Positions 4,324 through 36,487 of a stretch of DNA of 64,000 nucleotides are shown piece after piece. The DNA is from a bacterium. Its GTDB lineage: Bacteria; Planctomycetota; JAFGQW01. How positions within the stretch are numbered: the stretch's first letter is position 1; the number at the start of each line of letters is the position of its first letter. Both the position numbers and the translations under genes were made by a program. The notes under the pieces are model-generated. The model was not told where the DNA came from. It made no database searches and worked only from the letters and a program-made list of their open reading frames with translations. The stretch is from contig JAUHXU010000003.1 in the NCBI GenBank assembly GCA_030426805.1, positions 665,488-729,487 on the forward strand, given 5' to 3'.

Positions 4324-4362
4324 CTCGTGTACGCCCCGGAACATGTTCGCAAAACGCGGTTT

Positions 4363-4407: not shown

Positions 4408-4413
4408 CCAGAT

Positions 4414-8714: not shown

Positions 8715-8757
8715 CATGGAGCAGTGTTCGCGCCGGTTCGTGCTCGGGTCAAGGAGC

Positions 8758-8793
8758 GACCAGCTTCTGGCCACCGGTCACCAGTTTCTGGTG
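8758..8793. promoter_or_regulatory. Two adjacent palindromes, GACCAGCTTCTGGCC and CACCAGTTTCTGGTG, in the fxsA/efflux divergent intergenic region; candidate operator
   Basis: CACCAGTTTCTGGTG (8779-8793) is a perfect 15-nt palindrome. The upstream copy (8758-8772) has a perfect 11-nt core. They lie about 70 nt upstream of the first efflux gene. Confidence 0.3.
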
Positions 8794-8863
8794 CCGCGCG
8801 CGCGATCGGGCCCGCGCCGACTCGACTTACGGCTCGATTCGCGAACGGCCCGACGTTTGCGCT

Positions 8864-13858: not shown

Positions 13859-13871
13859 TCGGGAGTCGTCC

Positions 13872-17501: not shown

Positions 17502-17515
17502 TCCGGCCGATCAGC
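17497..17515. terminator. Bidirectional hairpin GCTGATC-cggcc-GATCAGC spanning the convergent stops of the RND and sulfotransferase genes
   Basis: 7-bp perfect stem with a 5-nt loop between convergent genes. No U-tract. Confidence 0.35.
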
Positions 17516-18323
17516 GCGCCGCGGCCGACGTCGCGGTGCCGTTGGCCGCGGGTGCGACCCGCGGGAAGACGACGTGGTCGCGCTTGACCCAGCGGTGCAG
17601 CAGGTAGCGGGCGCGGGCGCCGGCGATCTGGAGGCCGGAGTAGCGCTTCTCGCGCAGGTTGCCCCGGTAGGTGCGCTCGAGCGCGGCGACGTCGAGGTCG
17701 GTGCCGACGAACGCGGCGAGCTTCTCGACGGTCGCCTCGGGCTCGCAGATCAGGTCCTCGAACGTGATGCGGACGAACTTCGCGCCGGTGCGCTCGAAGA
17801 ATCGGTGGCAGCTGTCCCAGTAGTTGTCGAGGATGCGGACGTTCTCGGCGTAGCTCATCGGCACGCGACGGCTGAGCAGTTGCCCGGCGTAGGACTGCCC
17901 CGCCTCGCGCCCCATGTAGATGAAGCGCACCTGCGACCAGTCGACGATCTCGTTCCAGAAGTGGATCGTGTAGCAGAGGCGCGGGTCCTTCCAGACCCAC
18001 GGCTGGTGCTTGTCGCACTGCTCGGCGAACGCGCGAAACGGCGCGACGTCGATCCGTTCGGCGACCGCGCGCACCGCGTCGGGGTCGGGCGCCGGCAGGT
18101 CGGTGCAGATCGTGTTCGCGTAGCCCGACTCCTTCAGGATGCGGATGTCGAGGTCGACGAGGCCGGCGTTCTCGAACGTGTCGAAGTCGAGCTTGGCGTC
18201 CTCGCCGGGCTTGAAGATCTTCTTCGTGTCCCCGCCCACCCAGTAGCCGTGCTCGGCGAGAAAGCCGCTGAGCACCGAGCTGCCGCTCGAGCCGGGCGTC
18301 AGGATCACCAGGTTCGCTGCCAT
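17511..18323 (-). CDS. Sulfotransferase-family protein (Stf0-like)
   Basis: Start at the ATG for MAANLVILTPGSSGSSVLSG (P-loop-like PAPS 5'-phosphosulfate-binding motif). About 270 aa. It borders the polysaccharide locus. Confidence 0.55.
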   Translation of the reverse strand: MAANLVILTPGSSGSSVLSGFLAEHGYWVGGDTKKIFKPGEDAKLDFDTFENAGLVDLDIRILKESGYANTICTDLPAPDPDAVRAVAERIDVAPFRAFAEQCDKHQPWVWKDPRLCYTIHFWNEIVDWSQVRFIYMGREAGQSYAGQLLSRRVPMSYAENVRILDNYWDSCHRFFERTGAKFVRITFEDLICEPEATVEKLAAFVGTDLDVAALERTYRGNLREKRYSGLQIAGARARYLLHRWVKRDHVVFPRVAPAANGTATSAAAR

Positions 18324-18551
18324 CGTCGTTTCTCGTTCCCCATCGTGTGAACCGCTGCCGCACCCACCGGCCGCGCGAACGGTCACGCCCCGACGTCAAT
18401 CATCACGATCACGCGGTCGTCGTTCAAGTGCAGGAGTCGTGAATGGTGTGCAAAACGACGCTCCCGGAATTCTTTTCAGGGGCCGCCGGGGTTTCGGCTA
18501 AGGGAATGTCCTGCGGGCTGGGGAGCCCGGACCTCGACGACGGACGCGCAC

Positions 18552-19295
18552 ATGCACCGAGAACCACATCTTCTCCCGAGCGACGCGATGGGTCGCAAGC
18601 TCTACCTGTGGCAGTACGGCCACTTCGGCCCGCCGCTGCTCGTCTTCCCGTCGGCGTCGGGCATGGCGCACGAGTGGGAGTCCCACGGGATGATCGAGGC
18701 GCTCGCGCCGCTGATCGACCGCGGACGGCTCAAGGTCTACTGCGTCGAATCCAACGTGTCGGAAGCGTGGACCCGGCGCGAAACCGATCCCGCGTGGCGC
18801 ATTCAACGCCACCTCACCTACGAGCGGTTCGTCATCGACGAACTCGTGCCGGCGATCCGTCGCGACTGCCGTACGCCCGACATCCCGATCGCGGTGACCG
18901 GCTGCAGCCTCGGTGCGCTCTACTCCGCCAACGTCGCACTGAAGCACCCGGAGATCTTCCGCTACGCACTCTGCCTGAGCGGCCGCTACGACATCACCGA
19001 GTTCACCGGCGGCCACGACGGCGTCGACTTCTACTACAACAACCCGATCGCGTTCGTCCCGCAGCTCGACGGCCCGGCCCTCGACCGCGTTCGCCACAAC
19101 ACGCACCTCACGCTCGTGTGTGGCCGCGGCAAGTGGGAGGACGGCAACTGGCAGGAAGCGCAGCGCTTCGCCGGCATCCTCGACGCCAAGGGCATTCCCC
19201 ACTACCTCGACCTGTGGGGCACCGAGGTCGCGCACGAGTGGGTCTGGTGGCGACGCCAAGCGGCGATGCACCTGACGCAACGCTTCGGCCGGTAG
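18552..19295 (+). CDS. Esterase-family alpha/beta hydrolase
   Basis: Nucleophile elbow GCSLG, with the putative-esterase family pattern LWQYGHFGPPLLVFPSASG. An alternative ATG lies at 18588. It is on the opposite strand to its flanking genes. Confidence 0.65.
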   Translation: MHREPHLLPSDAMGRKLYLWQYGHFGPPLLVFPSASGMAHEWESHGMIEALAPLIDRGRLKVYCVESNVSEAWTRRETDPAWRIQRHLTYERFVIDELVPAIRRDCRTPDIPIAVTGCSLGALYSANVALKHPEIFRYALCLSGRYDITEFTGGHDGVDFYYNNPIAFVPQLDGPALDRVRHNTHLTLVCGRGKWEDGNWQEAQRFAGILDAKGIPHYLDLWGTEVAHEWVWWRRQAAMHLTQRFGR

Positions 19296-19304
19296 CCTAC
19301 GCGC

Positions 19305-20762
19305 TCAGCGGATCCACGAGAGGCGCTTGAGCAGCGGGCTTCCGAAGAGCGACCGCCCGCCGCTCACCGCGAGCAGCACCTGCGCGGTCGCGACCGCAAT
19401 GCACGCCTTGATCACCGCGAGGCCGAGTGAGGGCTCCGGCGCCCACACCGTGACCGCGAGCGCGAGCACGAGCGTCCCGACGTAGATCGCGACGAATCGC
19501 CCGACGTCCCAGCGGACGAGGTTCACGCGGCAGGAGATCAGGCCCAACACCGTCGTCTGCGCGACCTGGCTGAGCAGCGCGACGAGCGCTGCGCCGACGA
19601 TGCCGTAGCGCGGAATCACCAGCACGTTGACGGCCGCGCCGACGAGCACGCTGGACACGCCGGTCACCGAGATCCAGCGCGCGGTGGTCGTCGAGTAGAG
19701 CAGCTCGCGGCTGAAGATCGACTGGATGCCGAGCGCGGCGAACGAGAACGCCAGCGGCAACACGACGATCGCCGCCTCAGCGTAGCCCGGGCCGGCGAGC
19801 AGCGCGACCGCTTCTCGCGCGAACAGCGACACGACGAGCGCGAGCGTACAGTGCACCGACACGAGCAGCCCGGCGACCGAGCGCATCTCCTCGATCCGCG
19901 CCGGCTCCGACGAACGGATCGCCTCGATGAAGACCGGAAACAGCGCGCGATTCACGCACGCCACCGCGACCTGCACGAGCGCCGCCAACTGGAACCCGAT
20001 GCTGTAGACACCCGCGGCGGTCAAGCCGACGAAGTGATTCAGGAAGACGCGATCGAGCACGCCCTTGACGCCCATCGCGATGCTCTGCGGCGCCATCACG
20101 CGCCCGAACGCGAACGCGCGAGCGAGCAGCGCGCGATCGATCGTCCACGCGATGTCGTGGCGCAGCGCGACGACGACCACCACCGACGTCGCCGCGAGCG
20201 CGAGCGCCTGAGCGAGCAGCGCGCCGGCCGCGCCGAGTTCGGCGCCGACGACGAGCGCGACCGCGAGCCCGACCTTCAGCACGAAACTCGTCAGGCTGAC
20301 GATGCTGTAGCGCACCGAGCGGTGCGTCGCTTGGAGGTAGCAGAGGAACGTGTCGTACGCCGGCGCGAGCGCGACCGTCACGAGACCGATCGCGACGAGC
20401 GGGTAGAACGGCACGTCGCCGAGGAACGGCCCGAGCACCCACGGGCCGACGAGTGCGAGCAACGCCGCTGACGAGACCGAGACGAGCGCGAGCACCGAGA
20501 TGACCGTGCCGAGCAGCCGCTTGCGCGCGACCTCGTCGTCCTTCACCTCGGGGTAGAGTCGGACGAGTGCGGTGTCGAGCCCCATCGAGCAGAGCACCGC
20601 GAGGATCACGCCGACCGCCGACACGACCGCCAGTGCGCCGTAGTCGTCCGGCACGAGACAGCGCGTGTAGAGCGGCAGCAGGATGACGCCGAGCCCCTTT
20701 TGCAGGAGCGTCGCCGCGGTGTAGACCGCGGAGTGGAGCCCGACGTGGCGGATCGGGGTCAC
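19305..20762 (-). CDS. Polysaccharide biosynthesis protein / oligosaccharide flippase (Wzx, MOP superfamily)
   Basis: About 485 aa polytopic membrane protein. The N-terminus IRHVGLHSAVYTAATLLQKGLGVILLPLYTRCLVPDDYG is typical of Wzx. GTG start at 20762 with a GAGG RBS. Confidence 0.8.
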   Translation of the reverse strand: MTPIRHVGLHSAVYTAATLLQKGLGVILLPLYTRCLVPDDYGALAVVSAVGVILAVLCSMGLDTALVRLYPEVKDDEVARKRLLGTVISVLALVSVSSAALLALVGPWVLGPFLGDVPFYPLVAIGLVTVALAPAYDTFLCYLQATHRSVRYSIVSLTSFVLKVGLAVALVVGAELGAAGALLAQALALAATSVVVVVALRHDIAWTIDRALLARAFAFGRVMAPQSIAMGVKGVLDRVFLNHFVGLTAAGVYSIGFQLAALVQVAVACVNRALFPVFIEAIRSSEPARIEEMRSVAGLLVSVHCTLALVVSLFAREAVALLAGPGYAEAAIVVLPLAFSFAALGIQSIFSRELLYSTTTARWISVTGVSSVLVGAAVNVLVIPRYGIVGAALVALLSQVAQTTVLGLISCRVNLVRWDVGRFVAIYVGTLVLALAVTVWAPEPSLGLAVIKACIAVATAQVLLAVSGGRSLFGSPLLKRLSWIR

Positions 20763-20769
20763 GATCGCC

Positions 20770-21978
20770 TCACGTCGCCGAGACCGCCTCGGGGGTCTCG
20801 ATCGGCACACGGCTGCGACGCCCGTTCCGGCGCGCGCGGATCAACAGGTCGCCGACCTCACGCACACATCCCTGCCCGCCCGCGTGTTCGCACACGTAGT
20901 GCGCCGCCCGGCGAACCTGCTCCACGGCGTCGTGCGGGCACGCGGCGAAGCCGACCGCGGTCATCACTGCCAGATCGTCGACGTCGTCGCCGATATAGCA
21001 GCACTGCGACAGCTCGATCCCCTCGGATTGGCAGATCGCCTCGACGATGCTCTTCTTGTCGCGCACACCCTGGTGCACGTGGTCGGCACCGACGACGTCC
21101 GCGTGCCGCGACACGAGTTCGGTGATCTCCCCGGTGACGATCCCGGTCCGAAATCCAGCGGCACGCAACCGGCTGAACGCGAGGCCGTCACGCGAGTGGA
21201 ATCGCCGCAACTCGTCGCCGTGCTCGCTGTGGTAGACGCCCCCGCCGGTCATCACGCCGTCGACGTCGGTCAGGACGATCCGGATGCTGCGCGACGCGAG
21301 ATCGGGGCCGATCACGTGGCGACGCATCAGGACCTCGATCACGTCCCAGTCGTCGGGCTCGCCGACCTCGATCGCGTTGTACGGCGCCATCTCGTGCACG
21401 ACGACGCGACCCGGCAACCGGTGTCCCGCTTCACGCAGCGCTCCGACGCGCGTGATGCAGAACGCACCGTTCTCCATCAGCTGCCCGTCCAGCTCCCGGC
21501 GCCGCGGCCGGGATGCGGGATCGTAGTTCTTCGCGGTGCCGTCGGCGTTCCAGAGGAAGCGCCGGATGCGAACCGCGGTCACGAGCGAATCCGCGTCGGA
21601 CGCCCAGAACCGCTCGAGCCCGGCGACGAAGTCGCGGCGCCGCGTGAGCGGAGCCGCCGCACGCACGAGCAGAAACGTCGTGTCGTCGTCCAGCGGCTCG
21701 CGCGCGAGCACGTCGTGGATCGCGTCCTCCGCGGTCGCACCGTCGGCCGCGGTCGCGGGATCCCGATCGAACAGCTCGACCTTGCGCAACCGGAAGCCCT
21801 GCACCTCGCGACGGATTCGCGGACATTCGGTCGAGACGACGATCCGTTCGACGAGCCCCACCCGCTCGAGCGCGCGCAGCGACCAGTAGATCAACGGCCG
21901 GCCGCAGATCGGCTCGAGCATGCTCCCGTGCATCGGGCTGCCACGCGCCGGCGTCGGAACGAACGCGACGACACTCAT
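20770..21978 (-). CDS. Bifunctional sugar-acid cytidylyltransferase (NeuA/KdsB-like) fused to a HAD-IIIA KdsC-like phosphatase
   Basis: N-terminus MSVVAFVPTPARGSPMHGSMLEPICGRPLIYWSLRALE...IVVSTE is a nucleotidyltransferase. The C-terminus IVLTDVDGVMTGGGVYHSEHGDELRRFHSRDGLAFSRLRAAGFRTGIVTGE...CYIGDDVDDLAVM is a YrbI/KdsC-type HAD domain. ATG at 21978 with a GGAGAC RBS. Confidence 0.75.
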   Translation of the reverse strand: MSVVAFVPTPARGSPMHGSMLEPICGRPLIYWSLRALERVGLVERIVVSTECPRIRREVQGFRLRKVELFDRDPATAADGATAEDAIHDVLAREPLDDDTTFLLVRAAAPLTRRRDFVAGLERFWASDADSLVTAVRIRRFLWNADGTAKNYDPASRPRRRELDGQLMENGAFCITRVGALREAGHRLPGRVVVHEMAPYNAIEVGEPDDWDVIEVLMRRHVIGPDLASRSIRIVLTDVDGVMTGGGVYHSEHGDELRRFHSRDGLAFSRLRAAGFRTGIVTGEITELVSRHADVVGADHVHQGVRDKKSIVEAICQSEGIELSQCCYIGDDVDDLAVMTAVGFAACPHDAVEQVRRAAHYVCEHAGGQGCVREVGDLLIRARRNGRRSRVPIETPEAVSAT

Positions 21979-22078
21979 CAGTAGGTCTCCACTCCGGGCT
22001 CGGCCGTGATCGGCCCGCGGTCGTCGTCTTGTTTCGACCGGATGTCCTACCGAACTGAACCCCAAGGCTGCCGGCGGG

Positions 22079-22999
22079 TTACTCGCGGCCGTGGGCGATC
22101 GCGACCGCGGGTTCCTCCGGGGCGACGGCGTCGTAGCCGAGCTGCCGCATCGCAGCCGATCCGCCCACCGATTCCGCGAATGCGACCAGCCGCGGATCCG
22201 ACCGCCACGCGAACGCGCGGGTCGCATCCACGCCGTCGCACAGGCGATCGACCACCGCAGGCGCCGGATCGACCCCGACGAAGGACGCGAGTGCCTCGAC
22301 ACCGCGGCGCGGCTCGGCGAGGAGCGCTTCGTAGCCGACGGTGAACAGTCGATCACCCGGGATCGCGTCGAGGTTGCGCACCGCGAACGCCGCGTATTCC
22401 TCCCACAGCGCGAACGCAGCGTCGAGCGACCGGAAGCGAACCGAGTCCGCGATCCGCGCGCCGACACGCGCGACCCGCTCCGGCAGGCGCCCGTGCTCGG
22501 CGAGCCGGCGGCGCGTCGCCTCCAGCTGGCGCTCCATCCGGGTGACGAGGCTGTGTGCGACGTCGACGCCGTGACGATGCACGAACACGACGCGCGCCTC
22601 GGGGAAGAGGTCGAGCCACAGCGGGAGCGTCAGCGTCGCGCGCGGGTCCTTGAACCCCCACGGCTCGGTCATCCGCGCGAGTCCGCGACAGCGCATGTAG
22701 CGCGCGAGGCCCAGGTAGCGAACCGCACGCGGTGACGTGACGAAACCGCGGAGCGCGTCGACCGCAATGCCGCGCACCGCCGGGACGTCGAGCAACTCGG
22801 CCGCGAGCGCCGGGCGATCCCAGCTCGCACCCACCTGCTCGAGCAACCACTCGTTGAGCCGCAGGAAGAAGAGGGCCTCGTGGTTGATCTCCTTGCGCGC
22901 ACCGAGGAACACGCCGAACGCATCGAGTGCGCGCGTGACCATGCTCGTGCCGCTGCGGTGCATGCCCACGACGATGATCGGAGGGTTCGCCGCGTTCAT
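22079..22999 (-). CDS. Sulfotransferase
   Basis: 5'-PSB motif IIVVGMHRSGTSMV. ATG at 22999 overlaps the stop of the upstream GT4 gene (ATGA). Confidence 0.75.
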   Translation of the reverse strand: MNAANPPIIVVGMHRSGTSMVTRALDAFGVFLGARKEINHEALFFLRLNEWLLEQVGASWDRPALAAELLDVPAVRGIAVDALRGFVTSPRAVRYLGLARYMRCRGLARMTEPWGFKDPRATLTLPLWLDLFPEARVVFVHRHGVDVAHSLVTRMERQLEATRRRLAEHGRLPERVARVGARIADSVRFRSLDAAFALWEEYAAFAVRNLDAIPGDRLFTVGYEALLAEPRRGVEALASFVGVDPAPAVVDRLCDGVDATRAFAWRSDPRLVAFAESVGGSAAMRQLGYDAVAPEEPAVAIAHGRE

Positions 23000-24240
23000 C
23001 GATCCCCCCCGCCGAGCAGTCGCTCGAGCGCTGCGCGGCGCTGCTCGCCGATCGCGTGCCACGAGCGCTCGCGCTCGACCAGCGCGCGCCCCGCGGCGCC
23101 GATCCGGCAGCGGTCCGCGTCATCGCGCAGCCCACGCAGCGTCTCCGGGAAGTCGGCCGCATCGCGCACGAACAGGTGCACGCCGTCCCGTGCGTCGATT
23201 CCACGCGCGCCGAACGGCGTCGTCACGACCGGATGGCCGGTCGCGAGATACTCGAGCAGCTTCACGTTCGCACCGGAACCGTCGGTGACCGGGTTCACGC
23301 ACACATCGGCGGCGGCGAACCACGGCGCGAGGTCGGCGACCGGTCCGGTGACGCGCAACCGCGGGCCTGCCTCCGGTCGCGCCTCGACCGAGCCGGCGAC
23401 GACGAACAGGAAACGATCGTCGAGGCGTGCTGCCCACTCGCGCATCCGCCGCGCCGCGGCGCGATTCGGCACGTGCCAGCCGCCGGTGAAGAGCACGACG
23501 AAGCGATCGTCGACACCGAGCGCGTCGCGCGCGGCGGAACGCGCCGCGGCGCTCGGCGGGCGGAATGTGTCGAGGTCGACGCCGAGGGGCACGACGGCCG
23601 CGTCACGCGCACCGTAGCGCGCCGCGAGTTCGTCGCGGTCGGCGTCGGTGAAGCAGAACACGAGATCCGACTCGCACCACGCGCGCCGTTCGAGGTCGGC
23701 GGCCCGCCGAACGCTCGACGCCGGCGCGTCGGGCAGTCGCTCGAGCAGTGCCGCTTCGCAGTTGTGCGCGACGAGCACGCGCGTGTGCCGCGCTTCACCG
23801 AGCGGAAAGAGCCACGGGCACTCGAACTGCACGATGTCGGCCTCGTCGCACCGGCGGCGAAGCAGTCCCGAACGGCGGCGCGCGAGATGCGCCGCAGCGT
23901 CCAGGCCCGGCAAGCCGCTTCGGCCCCGGCGGAGGTAGTCCAGCCAGTTGAAGAGCGAGACGTGGCGCTCCTCGACGAGGCGGGGCTCGATCTCGCGCAC
24001 GAACGACCGGACGTGCCGGAACGCCTCGAAGCGCCGGACCCCCATCCCGAACAGGTGCACCTGCGTGCCGAGCCGCGCGAGCGCACGAGCCGGCTCCAGC
24101 ACGGCGACGTGACCGCCCGATCGGGCCGGATAGACCCCGAACGGGGACAGGATCGCGATCCGGTCGAGCGTGCGCCCCCCGGCCACGGCCCCGGCGGGAC
24201 GCGGCTCACGGACCATCGGGCGTGCGCGCGTGTTCATCAC
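22996..24240 (-). CDS. Glycosyltransferase family 4 (GT-B)
   Basis: C-terminal GT4 pattern VLFTGGWHVPNRAAARRM...VNPVTDGSGANVKLLEYLATGHPVVTT. Confidence 0.8.
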   Translation of the reverse strand: MMNTRARPMVREPRPAGAVAGGRTLDRIAILSPFGVYPARSGGHVAVLEPARALARLGTQVHLFGMGVRRFEAFRHVRSFVREIEPRLVEERHVSLFNWLDYLRRGRSGLPGLDAAAHLARRRSGLLRRRCDEADIVQFECPWLFPLGEARHTRVLVAHNCEAALLERLPDAPASSVRRAADLERRAWCESDLVFCFTDADRDELAARYGARDAAVVPLGVDLDTFRPPSAAARSAARDALGVDDRFVVLFTGGWHVPNRAAARRMREWAARLDDRFLFVVAGSVEARPEAGPRLRVTGPVADLAPWFAAADVCVNPVTDGSGANVKLLEYLATGHPVVTTPFGARGIDARDGVHLFVRDAADFPETLRGLRDDADRCRIGAAGRALVERERSWHAIGEQRRAALERLLGGGDR

Positions 24241-24378
24241 GAGTTCCTCTTCGACGCCGGCCGGCGAGGCACTGCAGCCCGAGCCACAATCCCTTTTTCG
24301 TCATGGTGTTACGTCGCCCGGACCGCCACGGCCCCCGGCCACTGCAGACGCCCGCGCCGAACTGCCGATGATGCGGCC

Positions 24379-25437
24379 ATGAGCGATACGGCCACCCGCC
24401 CCGCGCCCCCGACGGACGCCGCCCCGGTCGATCCGGCCTCCTCGGTGCTGACGATCGCGGTCCACGAACCGCCCGGCCAGCCGCTCAGCATCACCGGCTA
24501 CGCGACCGCGATCCGGCGCGAACTCGCGGGCGACCGCGTCGTGTTCGCCCCGTTCACCGGCGCCACGCCGTTGCCGGCCGCGGACGTCTACTGGGACCCG
24601 ACCGTCTCGGGCGGCAACGCGCCGACCGACGCGCTTCGACACGCACCCGGCCCGGTCGTGCTGACGGTCCACGGCGCCGCGCCGATGGCCGTGCCCGCGC
24701 GCGACTACTTCCCCACGATGCTCGACGCGATGCGCGGCCTCGTCCACAACGCGACGAACCGTCAGCGGTGGCGTCGCATCGCCGGCCACTACGCCGCAGT
24801 CATCGCGGTCTCGAACTACGCCAAGGGCGAGCTGGTCCGTTGCCTCGGCATCGCGCCGGAGTTGATCACGCCGATCCACCACGCCGCCGACCCCGAGTCG
24901 TTCCGACCGGCACCGGCCGCCGACGGCGTCGCGCCCTACCTGCTGCACGTGTCGCAGTACCAGCCGAAGAAGAACCTCGACCGCGTGCTCGCCGCCTACG
25001 ATCGCCTCGCCACACCGCGACCGCGACTCGTCGTCGTCGCGCCGGGCTTCCCCGAGCGACGGGTCCCGAATGGTGTCGAGGTCGTTCGCAACGCACTCGA
25101 CCACGGCGCGCTCGCCGGTCTCTACGCCGGTGCGATCGCGTTCGTCTTCCCCTCGCTGCACGAGACGTTCGGCATGCCGATCGTCGAGGCGATGGCGAGC
25201 GGCTGCCCTGTGATCACCGCGCGCGACACCGCGTGCGGCGAGGTCGGCGGCGACGCAGCGATGCGGGTCGACCCGCGCTCAATCGACGAGATCGCGGCCG
25301 CGATGCGCCGCCTGGTCGACGACGACGCGTGCCGCGCCCGCCTCGCCGACGCGGGACTCGAACGCGCCCGGTCGTTCTCCTGGAGCGAGTCGGCAGCGCG
25401 CCACCTCGCCGTCTTCGAACGGGTCGTCGGGCGATGA
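24379..25437 (+). CDS. Glycosyltransferase family 4
   Basis: LLHVSQYQPKKNLDRVLAAY...FVFPSLHETFGMPIVEAMASGCPVITA. It is divergent from the minus-strand cluster. Confidence 0.8.
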   Translation: MSDTATRPAPPTDAAPVDPASSVLTIAVHEPPGQPLSITGYATAIRRELAGDRVVFAPFTGATPLPAADVYWDPTVSGGNAPTDALRHAPGPVVLTVHGAAPMAVPARDYFPTMLDAMRGLVHNATNRQRWRRIAGHYAAVIAVSNYAKGELVRCLGIAPELITPIHHAADPESFRPAPAADGVAPYLLHVSQYQPKKNLDRVLAAYDRLATPRPRLVVVAPGFPERRVPNGVEVVRNALDHGALAGLYAGAIAFVFPSLHETFGMPIVEAMASGCPVITARDTACGEVGGDAAMRVDPRSIDEIAAAMRRLVDDDACRARLADAGLERARSFSWSESAARHLAVFERVVGR

Positions 25438-26423
25438 GCGCCGGCCTCGTCGCACCGGTCACCGACGCGCCGACGCCTCCCGCGGCCGATGCGCCGACGG
25501 TCAGCGTCGTGATCCCGCTCTACCAGGGCGAGCGCTGGATCCGCACCGCGATCGAGAGCGTCCTCGCGCAGCGCGGGTTCGACGACTTCGAGATCGTCGT
25601 CGTCGACGACGGATCGACGGACGCCGGCGCCGATGCCGTACGCGCGATCGCCGACGATCGAATCCGCGTGATCCGCCAGCCCAACCGGGGCATCGCGGCG
25701 GCGCGCAACGAAGGCATCGCGAAGAGCCGTGGTCGGTTCATCGCGTTCCTCGATCAGGACGATCTGTGGCAACCCGACAAGCTCGCGACCCAGATCCCGA
25801 TGTTCGCCGACGCACCCGACGTCGGGCTCGTCCACTGCCAGGCGGCGCGGGTCGATTCGCAAGGCCGGCAGATCCACTCGGGCCCACGCGTGAACCCGGA
25901 CCGGATGCGCGGGGACGTGCGCTCCGACATGCTCGTGATGAACATCGTCCCCGGCACCGCCGGCGTCGTCGTGCGCCGCGAGTGCTTCGACGCGCTCGGC
26001 GGGTTCGACGAGGCGCTGTCCGGCGCGGACGACTGGGACATGTGGTCGCGCATCGCCGGGCGATGGGCGTTTCGCTACGCCGAAGCGCCGCTCTGCTGCC
26101 TGCGCCTGCACGAGCACAACACGTCGCTCGACGTCGAGCACATGCGCACCGTGTCGGCCGCCGTGCGCGATCGGCTCTTCGCGAACCCGGACATCCGACG
26201 CGGCTTTTCGACGCGAACCCTGCGCCGCCTTCGTCGACGCAGCGATGCGCGGATTCACCACTACTGCGCGACCTGGTTGCTTCGCGCGGGGCGACGCACC
26301 GATGCGCGGCGAGAGCTCTCGGCCGCGCTGCGACTGCACCCGACCCGCCTGCGCCACATCGTGCTCTGGACCTACGCCGTGATCGGCTGGCTGCCGGGGC
26401 CACTGCGTCGCCGCCTGATCTGA
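25434..26423 (+). CDS. Glycosyltransferase family 2
   Basis: VSVVIPLYQGERWIRTAIESVLAQRGFDDFEIVVVDDGSTD...FLDQDDLW (DxD). ATGA overlap with the upstream gene. Confidence 0.85.
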   Translation: MSAGLVAPVTDAPTPPAADAPTVSVVIPLYQGERWIRTAIESVLAQRGFDDFEIVVVDDGSTDAGADAVRAIADDRIRVIRQPNRGIAAARNEGIAKSRGRFIAFLDQDDLWQPDKLATQIPMFADAPDVGLVHCQAARVDSQGRQIHSGPRVNPDRMRGDVRSDMLVMNIVPGTAGVVVRRECFDALGGFDEALSGADDWDMWSRIAGRWAFRYAEAPLCCLRLHEHNTSLDVEHMRTVSAAVRDRLFANPDIRRGFSTRTLRRLRRRSDARIHHYCATWLLRAGRRTDARRELSAALRLHPTRLRHIVLWTYAVIGWLPGPLRRRLI

Positions 26424-26435
26424 CCCATACCCGCA

Positions 26436-27446
26436 ATGAACGCCACCATGACCCCGCACTTCATCATCATCGGCGCGCAGAAGGCCGGCTCGTCGAGTCT
26501 GCAGCACTACCTGAACGCTCACCCCGACATCAGCCTGATCCGGCAGGAGGCGAACGTCCTGCAGGATCCGTTCTACTCGGAGGCCGCGGTCGACGAGTTG
26601 CTCCGCCGCTTCCCCGCCGACGCTGCCGACAAAGTCCGCGGGATCAAGCGACCGAACTACCTGAACCTGCCCGAGGTCCCGGCGCGCATCGAGCGCCACT
26701 TCCCCGACGCGAAGCTGCTCGTGACGCTGCGCGACCCGGTCGAGCGCATCGTCTCCGCCTACTTTCACTACATGCAGTACGGCGTGATCCCGGTCGTGCC
26801 GATCGAACGGGGTTTGCGCGCGATCCTGCGCGGGGACTACGACGACACCCATCCGGCGGCGATCGAAGTGCGCGAGTACGGCTTCTACGGCGCCCACCTC
26901 GCACGCTACTACGACCGCTTCCCGGCCGAACGGATCGCCGTGATCCTGTTCGCCGACCTCGTCACGGACGGGGCCGCGACGGTGCAGCGTCTCTACGAGT
27001 TCCTCGGCGTCGACCCGACGCGCGGCCCGTCGGAGGCATCGCGGGTCGTCACGAAAGGCACCTACTCGCTGCCGCGCGCCCGATTGCTCGCGCAGCGTCG
27101 CCGGTTCACGCACGACTTCGATCGCGCCCGGGGCATCGTCTCCCCGAAGCGGGTGACGACGGTCGGTCGCTACGCGGTGTCGGCGATCGACGCGGCCGAC
27201 CGGATGCTCTCACGCGTGTTCCCGAGCGACAAGCCGCGACTCGACACGGAACTCGTCGCGATGATCCGCGGGTTCTACGCCGAAGACGGACGCACACTCG
27301 AGCGCGTGCTCGGCGCGGACGCCGCCGTGAAGCTCGGATACACGACCGCAGAGCGACCGACGTCAACGCCGGTATCCCCGAGTCCTTCGAGCGCTTCGCC
27401 GGCGTTCGCCGACGACGCCAAGACGCCCCGGGCCATCTGCCGATGA
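26436..27446 (+). CDS. Sulfotransferase (heparan-sulfate-type fold)
   Basis: 5'-PSB FIIIGAQKAGSSSL and 3'-PB TLRDPVERIVSAY motifs are present. Confidence 0.8.
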   Translation: MNATMTPHFIIIGAQKAGSSSLQHYLNAHPDISLIRQEANVLQDPFYSEAAVDELLRRFPADAADKVRGIKRPNYLNLPEVPARIERHFPDAKLLVTLRDPVERIVSAYFHYMQYGVIPVVPIERGLRAILRGDYDDTHPAAIEVREYGFYGAHLARYYDRFPAERIAVILFADLVTDGAATVQRLYEFLGVDPTRGPSEASRVVTKGTYSLPRARLLAQRRRFTHDFDRARGIVSPKRVTTVGRYAVSAIDAADRMLSRVFPSDKPRLDTELVAMIRGFYAEDGRTLERVLGADAAVKLGYTTAERPTSTPVSPSPSSASPAFADDAKTPRAICR

Positions 27447-28252
27447 GCACTTCCATGAGCGAATCGATCGTTTCCACTCTGCCGCGCGCGAGCGTCGACA
27501 CGACGATCGACGTTGGACCGACCGAACGCATCGATCGGCACGACCCGGTCGGCAAGCGCGACTACCTCTCGCAGCAGCACGTCGGTCGGTATCGCTTTGC
27601 GACCGAGCGGTTGCGCGCCGGCATGCGCGTCCTCGACGCCGCGTGCGGCACCGCGTACGGCACCGAACTGCTCCTCGGTCGCGGGTGCGTCGCGATCGGC
27701 GGCGACATCGACACGGCGCAACTCACGGCAGCCAAGCGAGCACGAAGCGGCGACGACTACGTCTCGTTCGACGTGCTCGACACGCCGTTCCCCGACGCCT
27801 CCTTCGACGCGATCGTCAGTTTCGAGACGATCGAACACGTCGTGGACGGTCAGCGGTTCCTCGACGAGATGCATCGCATCCTCCGGCCCGGCGGCACGCT
27901 GATCTGTTCGACGCCGAACATCGCCTACACGTCGCACCCCGCGTATCACCTGCACGAGTATCGCCCCGAGGAGTACTACCGGCTCGTCGAAGCGCGATTC
28001 GCGTCGACGGAGCGCCACGCGCAGTACTTCACCGCGATCGACCGTCTGCAGGATCGCCTCCAGTTCATGCCGCCGACGTCGCGCACGTGGGTCCGACTCG
28101 CGCGCTATCCGCTCGAACTGTTGGGCAAGGCGTTGCGTCGGGTTCGCGGAACAGGGAGCGGCGACGGGGCGGCACGCGCCTGCTACGGCGTGGCGCCGTG
28201 CCGCGGCGACCGGCTGCTGCGAATCATGGTCACGGTGTCGACCAAGTCGTAG
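27443..28252 (+). CDS. Class I SAM-dependent methyltransferase
   Basis: VLDAACGTAYGTELL (motif I) and LRPGGTLICSTPN. ATGA overlap with the upstream sulfotransferase. Confidence 0.8.
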   Translation: MSTSMSESIVSTLPRASVDTTIDVGPTERIDRHDPVGKRDYLSQQHVGRYRFATERLRAGMRVLDAACGTAYGTELLLGRGCVAIGGDIDTAQLTAAKRARSGDDYVSFDVLDTPFPDASFDAIVSFETIEHVVDGQRFLDEMHRILRPGGTLICSTPNIAYTSHPAYHLHEYRPEEYYRLVEARFASTERHAQYFTAIDRLQDRLQFMPPTSRTWVRLARYPLELLGKALRRVRGTGSGDGAARACYGVAPCRGDRLLRIMVTVSTKS

Positions 28253-28257
28253 CCGTC

Positions 28258-28290
28258 CCGATCCGGGACCCGGATTCCCCTTTTTCGCAG
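28258..28290 (+). terminator. Hairpin (ATCCGG-gac-CCGGAT) followed by a T5 run, downstream of the GT/sulfotransferase/MTase operon
   Basis: A stem-loop at 28265-28281 is followed a few nt later by TTTTT, which is a rare T-run in this sequence. Confidence 0.35.
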
Positions 28291-28359
28291 CTTGCAACAC
28301 AACTTTCCCCGGCGGATTCCGAAGATCCAGAGGGAGGGATCGAAGCGGAGGAGCAGGGG

Positions 28360-29052
28360 ATGAACGGGCAACGTGGCTTTACACTCATCGAGCTGATGAT
28401 CGTCGTCGGGATCATCGCGATCCTCGCGTCGATCGCGATTCCCAACCTCGTGAACGCGCGAGTGCTGTCGAACGAGACGGCCGCGGTCGCGACGCTGCGC
28501 ACGATCACCTCGGCGCAGGCACAGTTCCAGACGTCGCGGGTGATCGACGTCGACGAGAACGGCCAAGGCGAGTTCGGCTACTTCGGCGACATGTCGGGCG
28601 CCACCGCGGTGCGCACGAACGCCGGGGTCAACGCCGGCGAGGTCGTGATGACCCCCGTGCTGAGTTCCGCGTTCCGCTCCATCGAGTCCGGCGTCGTCAC
28701 GAAGGCCGGCTACATGTTCCGAATCGCGATCGCCGACGTCGACGGCGTCGGCGTGCTCGAAGCGGCCAACGGCGGGGCCACGCAGCTGCTCGTCGGCGGC
28801 AACGCCGAGATCTTCTGGTGCTGCTACGCCTGGCCGATCACCTACCGTACGTCCGGCACGCGCGCGTTCTTCGTCAACCAGGAGGGCGACGTGCTGATGA
28901 CGAACAACCGGGCGACCGAATACAGCGGCCAGTTCGCCTCGCCGGAGATGGACGCCGCGTTCGTCGCTCCCTCCACCGACGACGCGATCGTCGGCCTCGT
29001 CGCGGTGAACACGACGGGCACCGACGGCAACCTCTGGATCCCGGTCAACTAA
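28360..29052 (+). CDS. Prepilin-type N-terminal cleavage/methylation domain protein (type IV pilin or T2SS pseudopilin-like)
   Basis: N-terminus MNGQRGFTLIELMIVVGIIAILASIAIPNL is the classic class III signal with an N-methylation site. GGAGG RBS. Confidence 0.85.
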   Translation: MNGQRGFTLIELMIVVGIIAILASIAIPNLVNARVLSNETAAVATLRTITSAQAQFQTSRVIDVDENGQGEFGYFGDMSGATAVRTNAGVNAGEVVMTPVLSSAFRSIESGVVTKAGYMFRIAIADVDGVGVLEAANGGATQLLVGGNAEIFWCCYAWPITYRTSGTRAFFVNQEGDVLMTNNRATEYSGQFASPEMDAAFVAPSTDDAIVGLVAVNTTGTDGNLWIPVN

Positions 29053-29067
29053 GACCGGCGCTCGGAT

Positions 29068-29337
29068 CTACCGAATGGTCGGGTTGTCTCGGGTCTGTTC
29101 GCCGAACGATCGTCGATCGTGTCGGTCCAACGCGTCCGCGATCCGCCGGCGCGGCCGGTAGGTCGCGACCTCCCACACGGAACCGAGGCCGTCGAACAGG
29201 ACGAACGCGACCGCACCGATGATCAAGCCGAGCGTCCAGCCCAGGAGCAGGCAAGCCACACCGGTGCCGATCGCGAGCACGATGAGCGTCGCGACCGCGA
29301 TCTGGAGCCCGAAGTGTTGAACCATCCGTCGTAGCAT
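29068..29337 (-). CDS. Small two-TM membrane protein (hypothetical)
   Basis: MLRRMVQHFGLQIAVATLIVLAIGTGVACLLLGWTLGLIIGAVAFVLFDGLGSVWEV... has a GGAGAC RBS. It is embedded in a longer R/E-rich artefact ORF (29068-30189). Confidence 0.4.
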   Translation of the reverse strand: MLRRMVQHFGLQIAVATLIVLAIGTGVACLLLGWTLGLIIGAVAFVLFDGLGSVWEVATYRPRRRIADALDRHDRRSFGEQTRDNPTIR

Positions 29338-29376
29338 GGGGTCTCCGCAATGGGCCGCGCGTAGAATGAGTCTATC

Positions 29377-30525: not shown

Positions 30526-30558
30526 CGCCGGCCGCGAGATCGTGCGAGAATCCGACGC

Positions 30559-36267: not shown

Positions 36268-36352
36268 CGCTGCTCCGGTCGTGTCCGTCCTCACAGTGCC
36301 TCGGCCGCCGGAATCCCGGACCGATCGGCGCCCGCAATTTTCGAAAACGTGC

Positions 36353-36380
36353 CGAACGCCCGGGGGTTCGACGGCGGTTC
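36353..36380 (-). promoter_or_regulatory. Candidate ECF-type promoter (GGAAC-N18-CGTTC) upstream of the ECF-fusion gene
   Basis: On the minus strand, GGAAC lies at 36380-36376 and CGTTC at 36357-36353. Speculative autoregulated ECF promoter. Confidence 0.25.
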
Positions 36381-36487
36381 CAACCGCTGCCGTGTACGGG
36401 TGGTGGCTACCTGACGCGCCGTTGACGATCGTGCGTGGGCCGGCTACCGTCTGGGCGGTGGTGGCGGGAAGTGACGGGAGCGCAACG

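What the first reader, a model, noticed from the sequence alone, without database searches (positions are those of the whole stretch)
17511..29052. Polysaccharide locus with three sulfotransferases, an O-methyltransferase and a cytidylyltransferase–phosphatase fusion, consistent with a sulfated, methylated acidic exopolysaccharide
Two divergent, translationally coupled operons share an intergenic region (24241-24378). The minus-strand operon encodes GT4, sulfotransferase, NeuA/KdsB-like cytidylyltransferase fused to KdsC-like HAD phosphatase, Wzx flippase, and (after an esterase on the opposite strand) a third sulfotransferase. The plus-strand operon encodes GT4, GT2, a heparan-sulfate-type sulfotransferase (5'-PSB/3'-PB motifs), a SAM methyltransferase, and then a prepilin-like gene. 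Three PAPS-type sulfotransferases in one Wzx-dependent locus is rare in bacteria. It predicts a sulfated glycan containing a CMP-activated 8- or 9-carbon sugar acid. No Wzy, Wzc/Wza or PAPS-synthesis genes are present in this window.
Basis: partly seen in the sequence, partly recalled or inferred. Interest (0 to 1): 0.75.

Follow-up and report, generated by a model that had tools for sequence, protein, structure and literature searches.

The report
Swappable sulfated-glycan cassette, relic sialic-acid gene
This is a strain-variable gene cassette from an uncultured, probably planctomycete, bacterium that most likely builds a sulfated and methylated surface sugar chain, which is a known kind of system; its "sugar-acid activating" gene has lost the residues that enzyme needs and its usual partner gene, so the predicted acidic sugar is doubtful.

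Summary
They form two divergent operons: GT4, sulfotransferase, NeuA-like/KdsC-like fusion and Wzx on the minus strand; GT4, GT2, heparan-sulfate-like sulfotransferase and SAM methyltransferase on the plus strand. The flanks are an esterase plus a third sulfotransferase-like gene on one side and a prepilin-like gene on the other.

- **Fusion gene.** It belongs to a widespread family that sits next to NeuB in 27 of 29 other loci. This copy has no NeuB and no sialyl/Kdo-transferase in 64 kb. It has also lost the essential Lys-Asn, Gln, Thr and one Mg-binding Asp of CMP-sialic acid synthetases. The phosphatase core is kept.
- **Variable cassette.** A related contig keeps the flanks at 87-91% nucleotide identity, but different genes fill 19301-28253, as in a serotype-type cassette.

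Verdict: a probable sulfated, methylated Wzx-type glycan locus, a new member of a known kind. The sugar-acid prediction is poorly supported. Interest is moderate to low.

The parts
19301..28253 (.). Variable glycan cassette as a whole, bounded by conserved flanks.
   Evidence: blastn of the window against the related contig L006. Identity is 91% up to 19293 (esterase end) and 87% from 28254 (one base past the MT stop). Inside, only Wzx plus the fusion align (73%). The remaining 6.3 kb has no counterpart.
17511..18323 (-). ST3: a sulfotransferase-fold protein of an unannotated subfamily with a non-canonical PAPS loop (GSSGSS). It lies in the conserved flank.
18552..19295 (+). Esterase (PF00756 family) in the conserved flank. 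A link to the glycan is not shown.
   Evidence: Pfam 48.8 bits. 97% identical in L006, dN/dS 0.04. Other assemblies call a 235-aa product, which would start at 18588.
19305..20762 (-). Wzx-type flippase.
   Evidence: Polysacc_synt 75 bits and Polysacc_synt_3 61 bits. About 12 hydrophobic segments. 40-43% identical to the Wzx that follows NeuB-fusion in L171.
20770..21978 (-). NeuA-like cytidylyltransferase (N-terminal, 21304-21978) fused to a KdsC/KDN-9-P-type HAD phosphatase (C-terminal, 20770-21303). The N domain lacks the catalytic signature residues.
   Evidence: PDB hits: PpNeuA 9t4z 1e-33, mouse CMAS 1qwj 5e-16, BT KDN-9-P phosphatase 3e81 2e-30, mouse CMAS C-terminal domain 3ewi 4e-14. 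TIGR01670 119 bits against a 107-bit cutoff. 19 of 75 conserved columns deviate. Not a frameshift, and identical in three assemblies. AF2 pLDDT 92.2.
22079..22999 (-). ST1: canonical Sulfotransfer_3-type sulfotransferase.
   Evidence: Pfam 70.1 bits. Motifs GMHRSGTS, WGFKDPR and HRHGVDVAHS. Weak alignment to Stf9 2z6v (E 0.062) over the same motifs.
22996..24240 (-). GT4a glycosyltransferase, first gene of the minus-strand operon.
   Evidence: Glyco_trans_1_4 59 bits and Glyco_transf_4 39.5 bits. 4-nt overlap with the ST1 start.
24241..24378 (.). Divergent intergenic region, presumed to hold both promoters.
   Evidence: Sequence read directly. No sigma-70 consensus match, which is uninformative for this phylum.
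24379..25437 (+). GT4b glycosyltransferase.
   Evidence: Glycos_transf_1 71.6 bits.
25434..26423 (+). GT2 glycosyltransferase.
   Evidence: Glycos_transf_2 114 bits. 4-nt overlap with the GT4b stop.
26436..27446 (+). ST2: heparan-sulfate-3-OST/NST-like sulfotransferase.
   Evidence: Sulfotransfer_3 66 bits and Sulfotransfer_1 49 bits. PDB hits 3rnl 7e-19, 1t8t 7.5e-17, 1nst 5e-10. PSB Lys and 3'-PB Arg/Ser align. The 3-OST catalytic Glu position holds Ile.
27443..28252 (+). Class I SAM-dependent methyltransferase; acceptor atom unknown.
   Evidence: Methyltransf_11 80 bits. All NCBIfam hits are below their cutoffs. Other assemblies call the start at 27455.
28260..28276 (+). Terminator-like hairpin ending the plus-strand operon.
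   Evidence: Pattern scan. Found 5 such sites against 4.1 expected, so it is weak on its own. Its position coincides with the cassette boundary.
28360..29052 (+). Prepilin-like gene in the conserved flank. Not part of the cassette.
   Evidence: N_methyl 37 bits and DUF2950 33 bits. 90% identical in L006, where it lies next to different glycosyltransferases.

Best explanation
Window 19301-28253 is a replaceable, serotype-like cassette for a Wzx-dependent surface glycan in an uncultured bacterium. Its housekeeping genes look planctomycete (Phycisphaerae-like).

**Inferred mechanism.**
1. A priming transferase encoded elsewhere starts a lipid-linked sugar unit.
2. GT4a, GT4b and GT2 extend it at the cytoplasmic face.
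3. The cytoplasmic sulfotransferases ST1 and ST2 add sulfate from PAPS, and the SAM methyltransferase adds methyl groups.
4. Wzx flips the decorated unit.
5. Polymerisation or ligation, export and PAPS supply are encoded outside the window.

**ST3.** ST3 lies in the conserved flank. It is a sulfotransferase-fold protein from a polysaccharide-locus-associated subfamily that lacks the usual loop Arg/Lys. It probably modifies the same glycan, but its activity is unproven.

**The fusion gene.** The NeuA/KdsC-like fusion descends from a widespread NeuB-fusion-Wzx nonulosonic-acid module. In this lineage NeuB is gone. The cytidylyltransferase domain keeps its fold but has lost its nucleotide-, sugar- and Mg-binding residues, so it most likely no longer makes a CMP-sugar acid. 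The HAD phosphatase core is intact, but two family-conserved residues that I expect to bind substrate are changed, so it may serve another sugar phosphate.

**Shown versus inferred.** Shown: gene content, motifs, folds, synteny and residue losses. Inferred: sulfation, methylation, the order of steps and the loss of catalysis.
For: - **Gene content and family scores.**
- **Canonical PAPS motifs in ST1 and ST2.**
- **ST3 family context.** Two genome loci lie inside Wzx/Wzy/GT clusters. Among 91 neighbouring proteins from 28 metagenome loci there were Wzx 15, Wzy_C 9, GT4 9, Sulfotransfer_3 4, Sulfotransfer_1 3 and PAPS_reduct 2.
- **Cassette behaviour.** Flanks are 87-91% identical at the nucleotide level. 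Inside, the fusion is 70% and Wzx 60% identical in protein, the glycosyltransferases about 31%, and the sulfotransferase is a different one at 28%.
- **Fusion family.** PDB and NCBIfam hits for both domains.
- **NeuB association.** NeuB is adjacent in 27 of 29 other loci with a full-length fusion. NeuB-fusion-Wzx order is seen in L171, whose Wzx is 40-43% identical to the window's. No NeuB-like or polysialyltransferase-like sequence occurs in the 64 kb.
- **Residue losses.** The window protein deviates at 19 of 75 conserved columns, where homologues above 35% identity deviate at 0-5. The losses are K19S, N20M, Q106R, T108A, Q161R, D206G, R292H and K295V. The L006 orthologue independently lost E204 and shares Q106R. 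These are real substitutions, present in three other assemblies.
- **Mapping to known enzymes.** E204-x-G206 aligns with the DID Mg site of mouse and Vibrio enzymes. In the N. meningitidis enzyme, D209A showed the greatest effect of all the mutants, D211A cut kcat 15,000-fold, and Q104L/E/N lowered kcat/Km 200- to 47,000-fold. Lys21 and Arg12 are essential in the E. coli enzyme (PMC2901514).
- **Phosphatase core kept.** D238, D240, K308 and D332 are all retained.
- **Published precedent.** Sulfotransferases sit inside a Wzx/Wzy EPS cluster that makes a sulfated polymer in Synechocystis (PMC8205485).
Against: - There is no chemistry. Sulfate, methyl groups and sugar composition are all unobserved.
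- PAPS-synthesis genes, the priming transferase, Wzy and the export genes are not in the window. The rest of the source genome (a 1.12-Mb contig) could not be read, so a NeuB, a second NeuA or a KdsB elsewhere cannot be excluded.
- Loss of cytidylyltransferase activity is inferred from sequence only. The domain is still under purifying selection (dN/dS 0.34) and folds confidently, so it does something.
- The L006 orthologue still has an intact motif I.
- ST2 lacks the Glu that acts as catalytic base in animal heparan sulfate sulfotransferases.
- ST3 lacks the PSB Arg/Lys.
- The taxonomic assignment rests on one protein at 77-78% identity.
Confidence: 0.6

Rival explanations
1. The locus makes a sulfated, methylated acidic polysaccharide that contains a CMP-activated 8- or 9-carbon sugar acid. 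The fusion is an active CMP-sugar-acid synthetase/phosphatase, fed by a NeuB or KdsA encoded elsewhere.
For: - The fusion ORF is intact and codon-biased.
- It is under purifying selection (dN/dS 0.31).
- It folds confidently and keeps the HAD catalytic core.
- It keeps its family position directly upstream of Wzx.
- The L006 orthologue keeps motif I.
- Two other fusion loci also lack an adjacent NeuB (L017 and L022).
Against: - The essential Lys-Asn pair, the Gln and Thr of QxT, the partner-subunit Gln and one Mg-binding Asp are lost. Mutations at these positions cripple characterised enzymes (PMC2901514).
- No NeuB or KdsA is present in 64 kb.
- The only glycosyltransferases are GT4 and GT2. 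By my own knowledge of CAZy, these families are not known to use CMP-sugars.
- No sialyl-, polysialyl- or Kdo-transferase family hit appears in any locus protein.
Confidence: 0.2
2. The cassette makes a short, non-polymerised decorated oligosaccharide rather than a long exopolysaccharide. This could be a single O-unit on lipid A-core, or a glycan transferred to a protein or lipid. This overlaps with the best explanation on the chemistry and differs only in the final product.
For: - No Wzy, PCP or OPX genes lie in the cassette or anywhere in the window.
- Only three glycosyltransferases are present.
- The variant cassette in L006 also lacks Wzy.
- A hypervariable cassette between conserved flanks is typical of O-antigen loci (the comparison is from general knowledge).
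Against: - Wzy genes are poorly detected by profiles and are often unlinked.
- In synechan the OPX gene is on another replicon (PMC8205485).
- ST3-family neighbours often include Wzy_C (9 of 91 proteins).
Confidence: 0.25
3. The sulfotransferase-like genes are not glycan sulfotransferases. They would sulfate a small molecule or lipid, or, in the case of ST3, be a non-catalytic or otherwise different P-loop-like protein. Their presence in the locus would then be incidental.
For: - ST3 is below the Pfam threshold and lacks the PSB Arg/Lys.
- Its closest structural matches are tyrosylprotein and polyketide sulfotransferases, not carbohydrate ones.
- ST3 lies outside the variable cassette.
Against: - ST1 overlaps the GT4a stop by 4 nt, and ST2 lies between GT2 and the MT with a 12-nt gap and a 4-nt overlap.
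- ST2's best solved relatives are carbohydrate sulfotransferases.
- ST3-family genes recur next to Wzx, Wzy, GT4 and canonical sulfotransferases.
- Sulfotransferases outrank kinases by more than 4 Z units.
Confidence: 0.08

Closest known systems
Synechan (xss) sulfated exopolysaccharide cluster of Synechocystis sp. PCC 6803 (Maeda et al. 2021, PMC8205485)
   Same: Both are Wzx-type clusters in which cytoplasmic sulfotransferases from different subfamilies sit among GT2/GT4 glycosyltransferases. In both, some export components are encoded elsewhere. The model is the same: sulfation of the lipid-linked repeat unit before flipping.
   Different: The xss cluster has 2 sulfotransferases, 8 glycosyltransferases, Wzy, PCP and its own regulators, and its product has been analysed chemically. 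The window cassette has 2 canonical sulfotransferases plus 1 atypical one, and only 3 glycosyltransferases. It also has a methyltransferase and a relic nonulosonic-acid gene, lacks Wzy, PCP and regulators, comes from a different phylum, and has no chemistry.
Putative sulfated glycosaminoglycan-like cluster of Pontiella sulfatireligans F21 (Kiritimatiellae; PMC7356697)
   Same: It comes from a PVC-superphylum bacterium. GT2 and GT4 genes sit with an adjacent methyltransferase and a PF13469 sulfotransferase, and sulfated exopolymer was detected in the culture.
   Different: It has one sulfotransferase in the cluster, hexosamine-pathway genes and no NeuA-like gene. Homology between the two sets of genes was not tested here.
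NeuB + NeuA/KdsC-type phosphatase pathway (B. thetaiotaomicron KDN pathway with BT1713 phosphatase; vertebrate CMAS with a C-terminal phosphatase-like domain; Prymnesium parvum CMP-Kdn synthetase, PMC6200933)
   Same: The fusion's N domain is most similar to PpNeuA (9t4z, 1e-33) and mouse CMAS (1qwj). Its C domain is most similar to BT1713 (3e81, 2e-30), KdsC, and the mouse CMAS C-terminal domain (3ewi). Its two-domain layout matches vertebrate CMAS. Relatives sit beside NeuB.
   Different: Here the synthetase domain, not the phosphatase domain, has lost its signature residues. From my own knowledge, in vertebrate CMAS it is the phosphatase-like domain that is inactive. NeuB and any sialyltransferase are absent. 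That 'Pp' stands for Prymnesium parvum is my assumption.
Tyrosylprotein sulfotransferases and the CurM/OLS polyketide sulfotransferase domains (closest solved folds to ST3)
   Different: The ST3 subfamily has Ser, Leu, Trp or similar where these enzymes have the catalytic loop Arg/Lys. Sequence identity is only 14-20%. The genomic context is polysaccharide synthesis, not protein or polyketide modification.

Membership tests
PAPS-dependent sulfotransferase: ST1 (22079-22999) | Profile match above the curated threshold. | tested here: met
   Sulfotransfer_3 at 70.1 bits against a 27-bit threshold.
PAPS-dependent sulfotransferase: ST1 (22079-22999) | 5'-PSB loop with Arg/Lys-Ser-Gly-Thr/Ser, and 3'-PB Arg...Ser. 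| tested here: met
   GMHRSGTSM and HRHGVDVAHS (R+8 = S). The same motifs align, weakly (E 0.062), with those of Stf9 2z6v.
PAPS-dependent sulfotransferase: ST2 (26436-27446) | Profile match and similarity to solved sulfotransferases. | tested here: met
   Sulfotransfer_3 65.9 bits and Sulfotransfer_1 49 bits. PDB hits 3rnl 7e-19, 3-OST-3 7.5e-17, NST 5e-10.
PAPS-dependent sulfotransferase: ST2 (26436-27446) | PSB Lys and 3'-PB Arg/Ser aligned with heparan sulfate sulfotransferases. | tested here: met
   GAQKAGSS aligns with GVKKGGTR, and LRDPVERIVSAY with VRDPVTRAISDY.
Heparan sulfate 3-OST/NST subfamily: ST2 | Catalytic-base Glu in the E-K-(T/S)-P-x-Y motif. | tested here: not met
   The window has G-I-K-R-P-N-Y, so Ile replaces Glu. 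ST2 resembles this subfamily, but membership is not claimed. The role of that Glu as catalytic base is from my own knowledge.
PAPS-dependent sulfotransferase: ST3 (17511-18323) | Profile match above the curated threshold. | tested here: not met
   Sulfotransfer_3 at 22.7 bits, below 27, and covering the C-terminal part only. No NCBIfam hit. Best PDB sequence hit E 0.13.
PAPS-dependent sulfotransferase: ST3 (17511-18323) | Sulfotransferase fold. | tested here: met
PAPS-dependent sulfotransferase: ST3 (17511-18323) | Arg/Lys in the 5'-PSB loop. | tested here: not met
   The window has TPGSSGSS. Across the subfamily this position is Leu, Ser, Trp, His or Gln, and only rarely Arg. More distant relatives have GM(P/H)RSGTS.
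PAPS-dependent sulfotransferase: ST3 (17511-18323) | 3'-PB Arg (and Ser), and the conserved Lys of the KDP strand. | tested here: inconclusive
   R139 and K112 (in WKDPR) are invariant. The Ser at R+8 is present in most of the subfamily but is Gly in the window protein. Binding of PAPS was not tested.
CMP-nonulosonic/octulosonic acid synthetase (CTP_transf_3; NeuA/KdsB): fusion N domain | Homology to characterised enzymes. | tested here: met
   CTP_transf_3 at 25.8 bits against a 22.6-bit threshold. PDB hits 9t4z 3e-34 and 1qwj 2e-16.
CMP-nonulosonic/octulosonic acid synthetase (CTP_transf_3; NeuA/KdsB): fusion N domain | Motif I, P-A-R-G-G-S-K/R-x-I-P-x-K-N (Arg12 and Lys21 of the E. coli/Neisseria enzymes). 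| tested here: not met
   The window has PTPARGSPMHGSML, with no Lys in the first 60 residues. K and N are 100% conserved in the 39 homologues. This is not a frameshift. The residues' roles are given in PMC2901514.
CMP-nonulosonic/octulosonic acid synthetase (CTP_transf_3; NeuA/KdsB): fusion N domain | The Q-x-T-S-P sugar/metal motif and the acidic D/E-x-D Mg site. | tested here: not met
   The window has R106-A-A108 in place of Q-A-T, and E204-V-G206 aligned to the D-I-D of mouse and Vibrio enzymes.
CMP-nonulosonic/octulosonic acid synthetase (CTP_transf_3; NeuA/KdsB): fusion N domain | Pathway context: an adjacent sugar-acid synthase (NeuB/KdsA) and a CMP-sugar-acid transferase. | tested here: not met
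   27 of 29 other loci with a full-length fusion have NeuB adjacent. None is found in the 64-kb window. The rest of the genome is not testable with these tools.
KdsC/YrbI-type HAD-IIIA phosphatase: fusion C domain | Family profile above the cutoff, with the HAD core motifs DxD, T/S, K and GDxxxD. | tested here: met
   TIGR01670 at 119.1 bits against 106.95. D238, D240, T244, K308, G330 and D332 are all kept. PDB hits 3e81 2e-30 and 4um5 2e-30.
KDN-9-P or KDO-8-P phosphatase (equivalog level): fusion C domain | Equivalog score and substrate-binding residues. | tested here: not met
   KDN-9-P phosphatase model 136 bits, below 180. KdsC model 130 bits, below 208. Family-conserved R292 (100%) and K295 (97%) are His and Val here. 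That these residues bind substrate is from memory of the BT1713 work; the papers could not be retrieved.
Wzx/Wzy-dependent polysaccharide locus | A Wzx flippase together with glycosyltransferases. | tested here: met
   
Wzx/Wzy-dependent polysaccharide locus | Wzy polymerase, PCP/OPX export pair and a priming phosphoglycosyl transferase. | tested here: not met
   None is detected in the cassette or the 64-kb window. The 382-aa membrane protein at 29377-30525 has no family hit and is absent from L006. These genes may lie elsewhere in the genome.

The most novel reading that the evidence does not exclude
Two linked oddities may be real biology rather than decay.

(1) The ST3 subfamily has the motif T-x-G-(L/S/W)-(S/T)-G-S-S and 89 cluster representatives at E<=1e-30. 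It recurs next to Wzx, Wzy and canonical sulfotransferases. It could be a widespread, unannotated class of polysaccharide-modifying sulfotransferase-fold enzymes that work without the catalytic loop Arg/Lys. They might use the KDP Lys, a different donor or a different transfer chemistry.

(2) In this lineage the NeuA-like domain may have become a pseudoenzyme scaffold for a repurposed sugar-phosphate phosphatase. That would mirror vertebrate CMAS, where the phosphatase-like half is the inactive one.
Probability: 0.3. Interest if true: 0.55.

Novelty: new member of a known kind. Interest (0 to 1): 0.38.

Why it matters
Sulfated glycans are well understood in animals and algae but poorly in bacteria. 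Sulfated and sialylated polymers have been measured in granular sludge and microbial mats without knowing which organisms or genes produce them (PMC10483923; PMC9723792; PMC7356697).

This cassette is a concrete, compact candidate outside cyanobacteria: 3 glycosyltransferases, 2-3 sulfotransferases, 1 methyltransferase and Wzx. A natural variant exists in a sister genome, which allows gene content to be compared with product.

It is also a caution for annotation-based glycan prediction. A confident 'cytidylyltransferase' hit hides the loss of the catalytic residues and of the pathway partner, so an 'acidic nonulosonate' call from domain content alone would probably be wrong.

The ST3 subfamily is a practical target for biochemistry, because most of its members carry no annotation.

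Tried and rejected
- **Frameshift or assembly error in the degenerate motif I.** Rejected. None of the three reading frames encodes the canonical motif, and the DNA differs from the L006 orthologue by substitutions plus in-frame indels. The sequence is identical in three other assemblies from different samples.
- **Recovering the source genome and its taxon from the GTDB genome scan.** Failed. The search patterns were built from the two motifs that are degenerate in this protein, and the best hit was only 41% identical. The exact-protein look-ups returned only short Logan contigs, although an NCBI 1.12-Mb contig exists. The taxon was therefore inferred only from adenosylhomocysteinase hits.
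- **NeuB-like or polysialyltransferase-like genes in the window (tblastn).** None found.
- **The membrane protein at 29377-30525 as a hidden Wzy.** Rejected. It has about 5 strong hydrophobic segments, no family hit and no counterpart in L006.
- **The prepilin-like gene as part of the operon.** Rejected on the basis of synteny and a terminator-like hairpin.
- **Rfam scan of 16500-30600.** No hits.
- **Sigma-70 promoter scan.** No hits, which is uninformative for this phylum.
- **Context look-up for the Desulfonatronovibrio ST3 homologue P0005.** Not on record.
- **Papers on BT1713 specificity residues and the B. thetaiotaomicron KDN pathway.** Not held in the library. Statements about those residues are marked as recalled from memory.
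- **dN/dS as a test for pseudogenisation.** Both fusion domains are below 1 (0.34 and 0.27), so free decay is rejected, but the test cannot tell whether catalysis is retained.

Full report
**Gene map.** The window is 68-72% GC across the locus, so raw ORF lists are crowded with spurious frames. I chose genes by third-position GC (0.84-0.94 with GC1 > GC2). I then checked them against gene calls on four independent metagenome assemblies that carry the identical sequence (L001-L005).

| Gene | Coordinates | Strand |
|---|---|---|
| ST3-like | 17511-18323 | - |
| Esterase | 18552-19295 | + |
| Wzx | 19305-20762 | - |
| NeuA-like/KdsC-like fusion | 20770-21978 | - |
| ST1 | 22079-22999 | - |
| GT4a | 22996-24240 | - |
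| Intergenic | 24241-24378 | . |
| GT4b | 24379-25437 | + |
| GT2 | 25434-26423 | + |
| ST2 | 26436-27446 | + |
| SAM methyltransferase | 27443-28252 | + |
| Prepilin-like (N_methyl + DUF2950) | 28360-29052 | + |

Coupling is real at three junctions, which have 4-nt overlaps. It does not hold between ST1 and the fusion, where the gap is 100 nt. The left flank is a CusCBA efflux operon. The rest of the window holds no Wzy, PCP/OPX, priming transferase, NeuB/KdsA or sulfate-activation gene.

**ST1 and ST2.** Both are ordinary PAPS-type enzymes by every test available.
- ST1 scores 70 bits on Sulfotransfer_3 and has GMHRSGTS, WGFKDPR and R-x7-S.
- ST2 matches a bacterial sulfotransferase structure (3rnl, 7e-19) and heparan sulfate 3-OSTs and NST (1e-16 to 5e-10). 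Its PSB Lys and 3'-PB Arg/Ser align residue for residue.
- ST2 does not keep the Glu of the animal E-K-T-P-x-Y motif. 'Heparan-sulfate-type' is therefore a resemblance, not membership.

**ST3.** This gene is different.
- It is below Pfam's threshold (22.7 against 27 bits), has no NCBIfam hit, and has no significant PDB sequence hit.
- A 26-sequence alignment gave a confident model with pLDDT 92.8.
- The family keeps an invariant WKDPR Lys and the 3'-PB Arg. Where canonical relatives have GM(P/H)RSGTS, this subfamily has T-x-G-(L/S/W/H...)-(S/T)-G-S-S, so the catalytic loop Arg/Lys is systematically missing.
- A profile search of 1.84 billion representatives found 89 at E<=1e-30.
- Its genomic company is consistent. 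Two genome loci place it inside Wzx/Wzy/GT clusters. Among 91 neighbouring proteins from 28 metagenome loci, the commonest families were Wzx (15), GT4 (9) and Wzy_C (9). Canonical sulfotransferases (4 and 3) and PAPS_reduct-domain proteins (2) were also present.

I read ST3 as a polysaccharide-associated sulfotransferase-fold protein whose activity is unproven.

**The fusion gene: family and context.**
- The N domain matches 'PpNeuA' (9t4z, 1e-33) and mouse CMP-sialic acid synthetase (1qwj).
- The C domain matches B. thetaiotaomicron KDN-9-P phosphatase (3e81, 2e-30), KdsC enzymes, and the C-terminal domain of mouse CMAS (3ewi). It passes the TIGR01670 cutoff.
- The architecture is widespread. 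I found 45 clusters in the protein search and full-length copies in many phyla.
- In 27 of 29 other loci with a full-length fusion, NeuB is immediately adjacent. In L171 the order is NeuB-fusion-Wzx, and that Wzx is 40-43% identical to the window's.
- A more distant copy sits in a legionaminic/pseudaminic-type cluster (L034).
- The window, and its close relative L006, have the fusion-Wzx pair but no NeuB. They also have no sialyl-, polysialyl- or Kdo-transferase.

**The fusion gene: residue losses.** At 75 columns that are at least 85% conserved among 39 homologues, the window protein deviates at 19, and 14 of those lie in the N domain. Homologues above 35% identity deviate at 0-5. Four kinds of residue are lost.
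- **Motif I.** The window has PTPARGSPMHGSML in place of P-A-R-G-G-S-K-x-I-P-x-K-N, and there is no Lys in the first 60 residues.
- **The QxT motif.** Q106 is Arg and T108 is Ala.
- **The RPRRQ motif.** Q161 is Arg.
- **The Mg site.** D206 is Gly, and E204-V-G206 aligns with the D-I-D of the mouse and Vibrio enzymes.

These are substitutions, not a frameshift, and they are identical in three other assemblies. The L006 orthologue shares Q106R and has independently lost E204, but it keeps motif I.

In characterised enzymes these positions matter. Lys21 and Arg12 are essential in the E. coli enzyme. In the N. meningitidis enzyme, D209A showed the greatest effect of all the mutants, D211A cut kcat 15,000-fold, and Q104L/E/N lowered kcat/Km 200- to 47,000-fold (PMC2901514).

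The domain still folds confidently (pLDDT 92.2) and is under purifying selection (dN/dS 0.34). It is therefore retained for something, but probably not for CMP-sugar synthesis. The HAD core (D238, D240, K308, D332) is intact, while the family-conserved R292 and K295 are His and Val.

**Comparison with the related contig L006.** This gives the clearest picture of what the locus is.

| Region | Identity to the window |
|---|---|
| CusA, ST3 and esterase block | 91% nucleotide; protein 95% (ST3) and 97% (esterase) |
| Pilin-like gene | 87% nucleotide; 90% protein |
| Fusion | 70% protein |
| Wzx | 60% protein |
| Glycosyltransferases | about 31% protein, unrelated paralogues |
| Sulfotransferase | 28% protein, a different gene |
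| ST2 and methyltransferase | absent from L006 |

Nucleotide similarity breaks exactly at the esterase stop (19293) and one base after the methyltransferase stop (28254). The region 19301-28253 is therefore a replaceable cassette between conserved flanks, as in O-antigen or capsule serotype loci. ST3 and the esterase belong to the flank. A terminator-like hairpin at 28260-28276 fits the right boundary, although such matches are no more frequent here than in shuffled sequence.

**Mechanism.** The following is inferred.
1. A lipid-linked unit is built by a primer encoded elsewhere and extended by GT4a, GT4b and GT2.
2. ST1 and ST2, and perhaps ST3, sulfate it in the cytoplasm using PAPS. None of the three has a signal peptide or membrane segment by inspection.
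3. The SAM methyltransferase methylates it.
4. Wzx flips it.

This is the model proposed for synechan, whose xss cluster has two sulfotransferases, eight glycosyltransferases and Wzx/Wzy/PCP, with the OPX gene on another replicon (PMC8205485). A PVC-group precedent is Pontiella, which has a GT2/GT4 cluster with a methyltransferase and a sulfotransferase and produces measured sulfated exopolymer (PMC7356697). Whether the product here is a polymer or a short glycan cannot be decided, because Wzy and the export genes are missing from the window.

**Organism.** The window's adenosylhomocysteinase is 77-78% identical to named Planctomycetes and Phycisphaerales MAG proteins, with Nitrospirota and Verrucomicrobiota hits almost as close. 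The assignment is tentative.

**Verdict.** The locus is a new member of a known kind, sulfotransferase-bearing Wzx-type glycan clusters, from an uncultured lineage. Two points are moderately interesting: an apparently catalytically disabled NeuA-like domain, and an unannotated sulfotransferase-fold subfamily that lacks the loop Arg/Lys. I score interest at 0.38.

Noticed in passing
window 29056-49686: About 20.6 kb has no counterpart in the related contig L006, where only about 1.6 kb separates the pilin-like gene from the Polyketide_cyc2 gene. This is a large indel or island next to the glycan cassette. It holds a membrane protein at 29377-30525, a CAP-domain protein at 30559-32811, an ECF-sigma domain fused to about 8 CarboxypepD_reg repeats at 32827-36756(-), a TPR protein at 36086-39109, several ORFs with no family, and a DUF7948/SBBP protein at 47134-49635(-).
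   Followed up: partly
window 32827-36756(-) and 36086-39109(+): Two very long ORFs on opposite strands overlap by about 670 nt, so at least one start is mis-set. In the 1309-aa ORF the sigma-70 r2/r4 domains begin only at residue 174.
   Followed up: no
window 8864-17501: A complete CusC/CusB/CusA-type heavy-metal efflux operon (OEP, HlyD_D23 with an HMBD motif, ACR_tran) abuts ST3 and converges on it.
   Followed up: no
window 1815-4272: An ArsR-type HTH fused to a SAM methyltransferase (1815-2909) lies directly upstream of adenosylhomocysteinase. This may be a methylation-cycle regulatory pair.
   Followed up: no
window 4384-5556: A Fic/SoFic-like protein adenylyltransferase with Fic_N, Fic and SoFic-like_C domains.
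   Followed up: no
window 50834-52144 and 56399-59329: A further weak GT1-type glycosyltransferase, and a GH92 alpha-mannosidase-family protein with an F5/8 type C domain. Both are conserved in L006 at 83-84% nucleotide identity.
   Followed up: no
L034 (Gemmatimonadaceae MAG) 182-16838: A distant copy of the fusion (30% identity) sits with NeuB, a CBS + NTP_transferase protein, an epimerase/dehydratase, a DegT aminotransferase, an N-acetyltransferase-like protein and a pyruvyl transferase. An ST2-like sequence lies 5.7 kb downstream. It is the only one of the 80 genome-scan loci with a sulfotransferase-like hit near the fusion.
   Followed up: partly
L171 4552-6006 and L007 6676-7749: In intact NeuB-fusion loci, the gene after the fusion or Wzx is a DUF6716 protein (L171) or a protein with a faint polysialyltransferase match (L007). 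Both are candidates for the missing nonulosonate transferase. Neither has a homologue in the window; only DUF6716 was also searched against L006, with no hit.
   Followed up: partly
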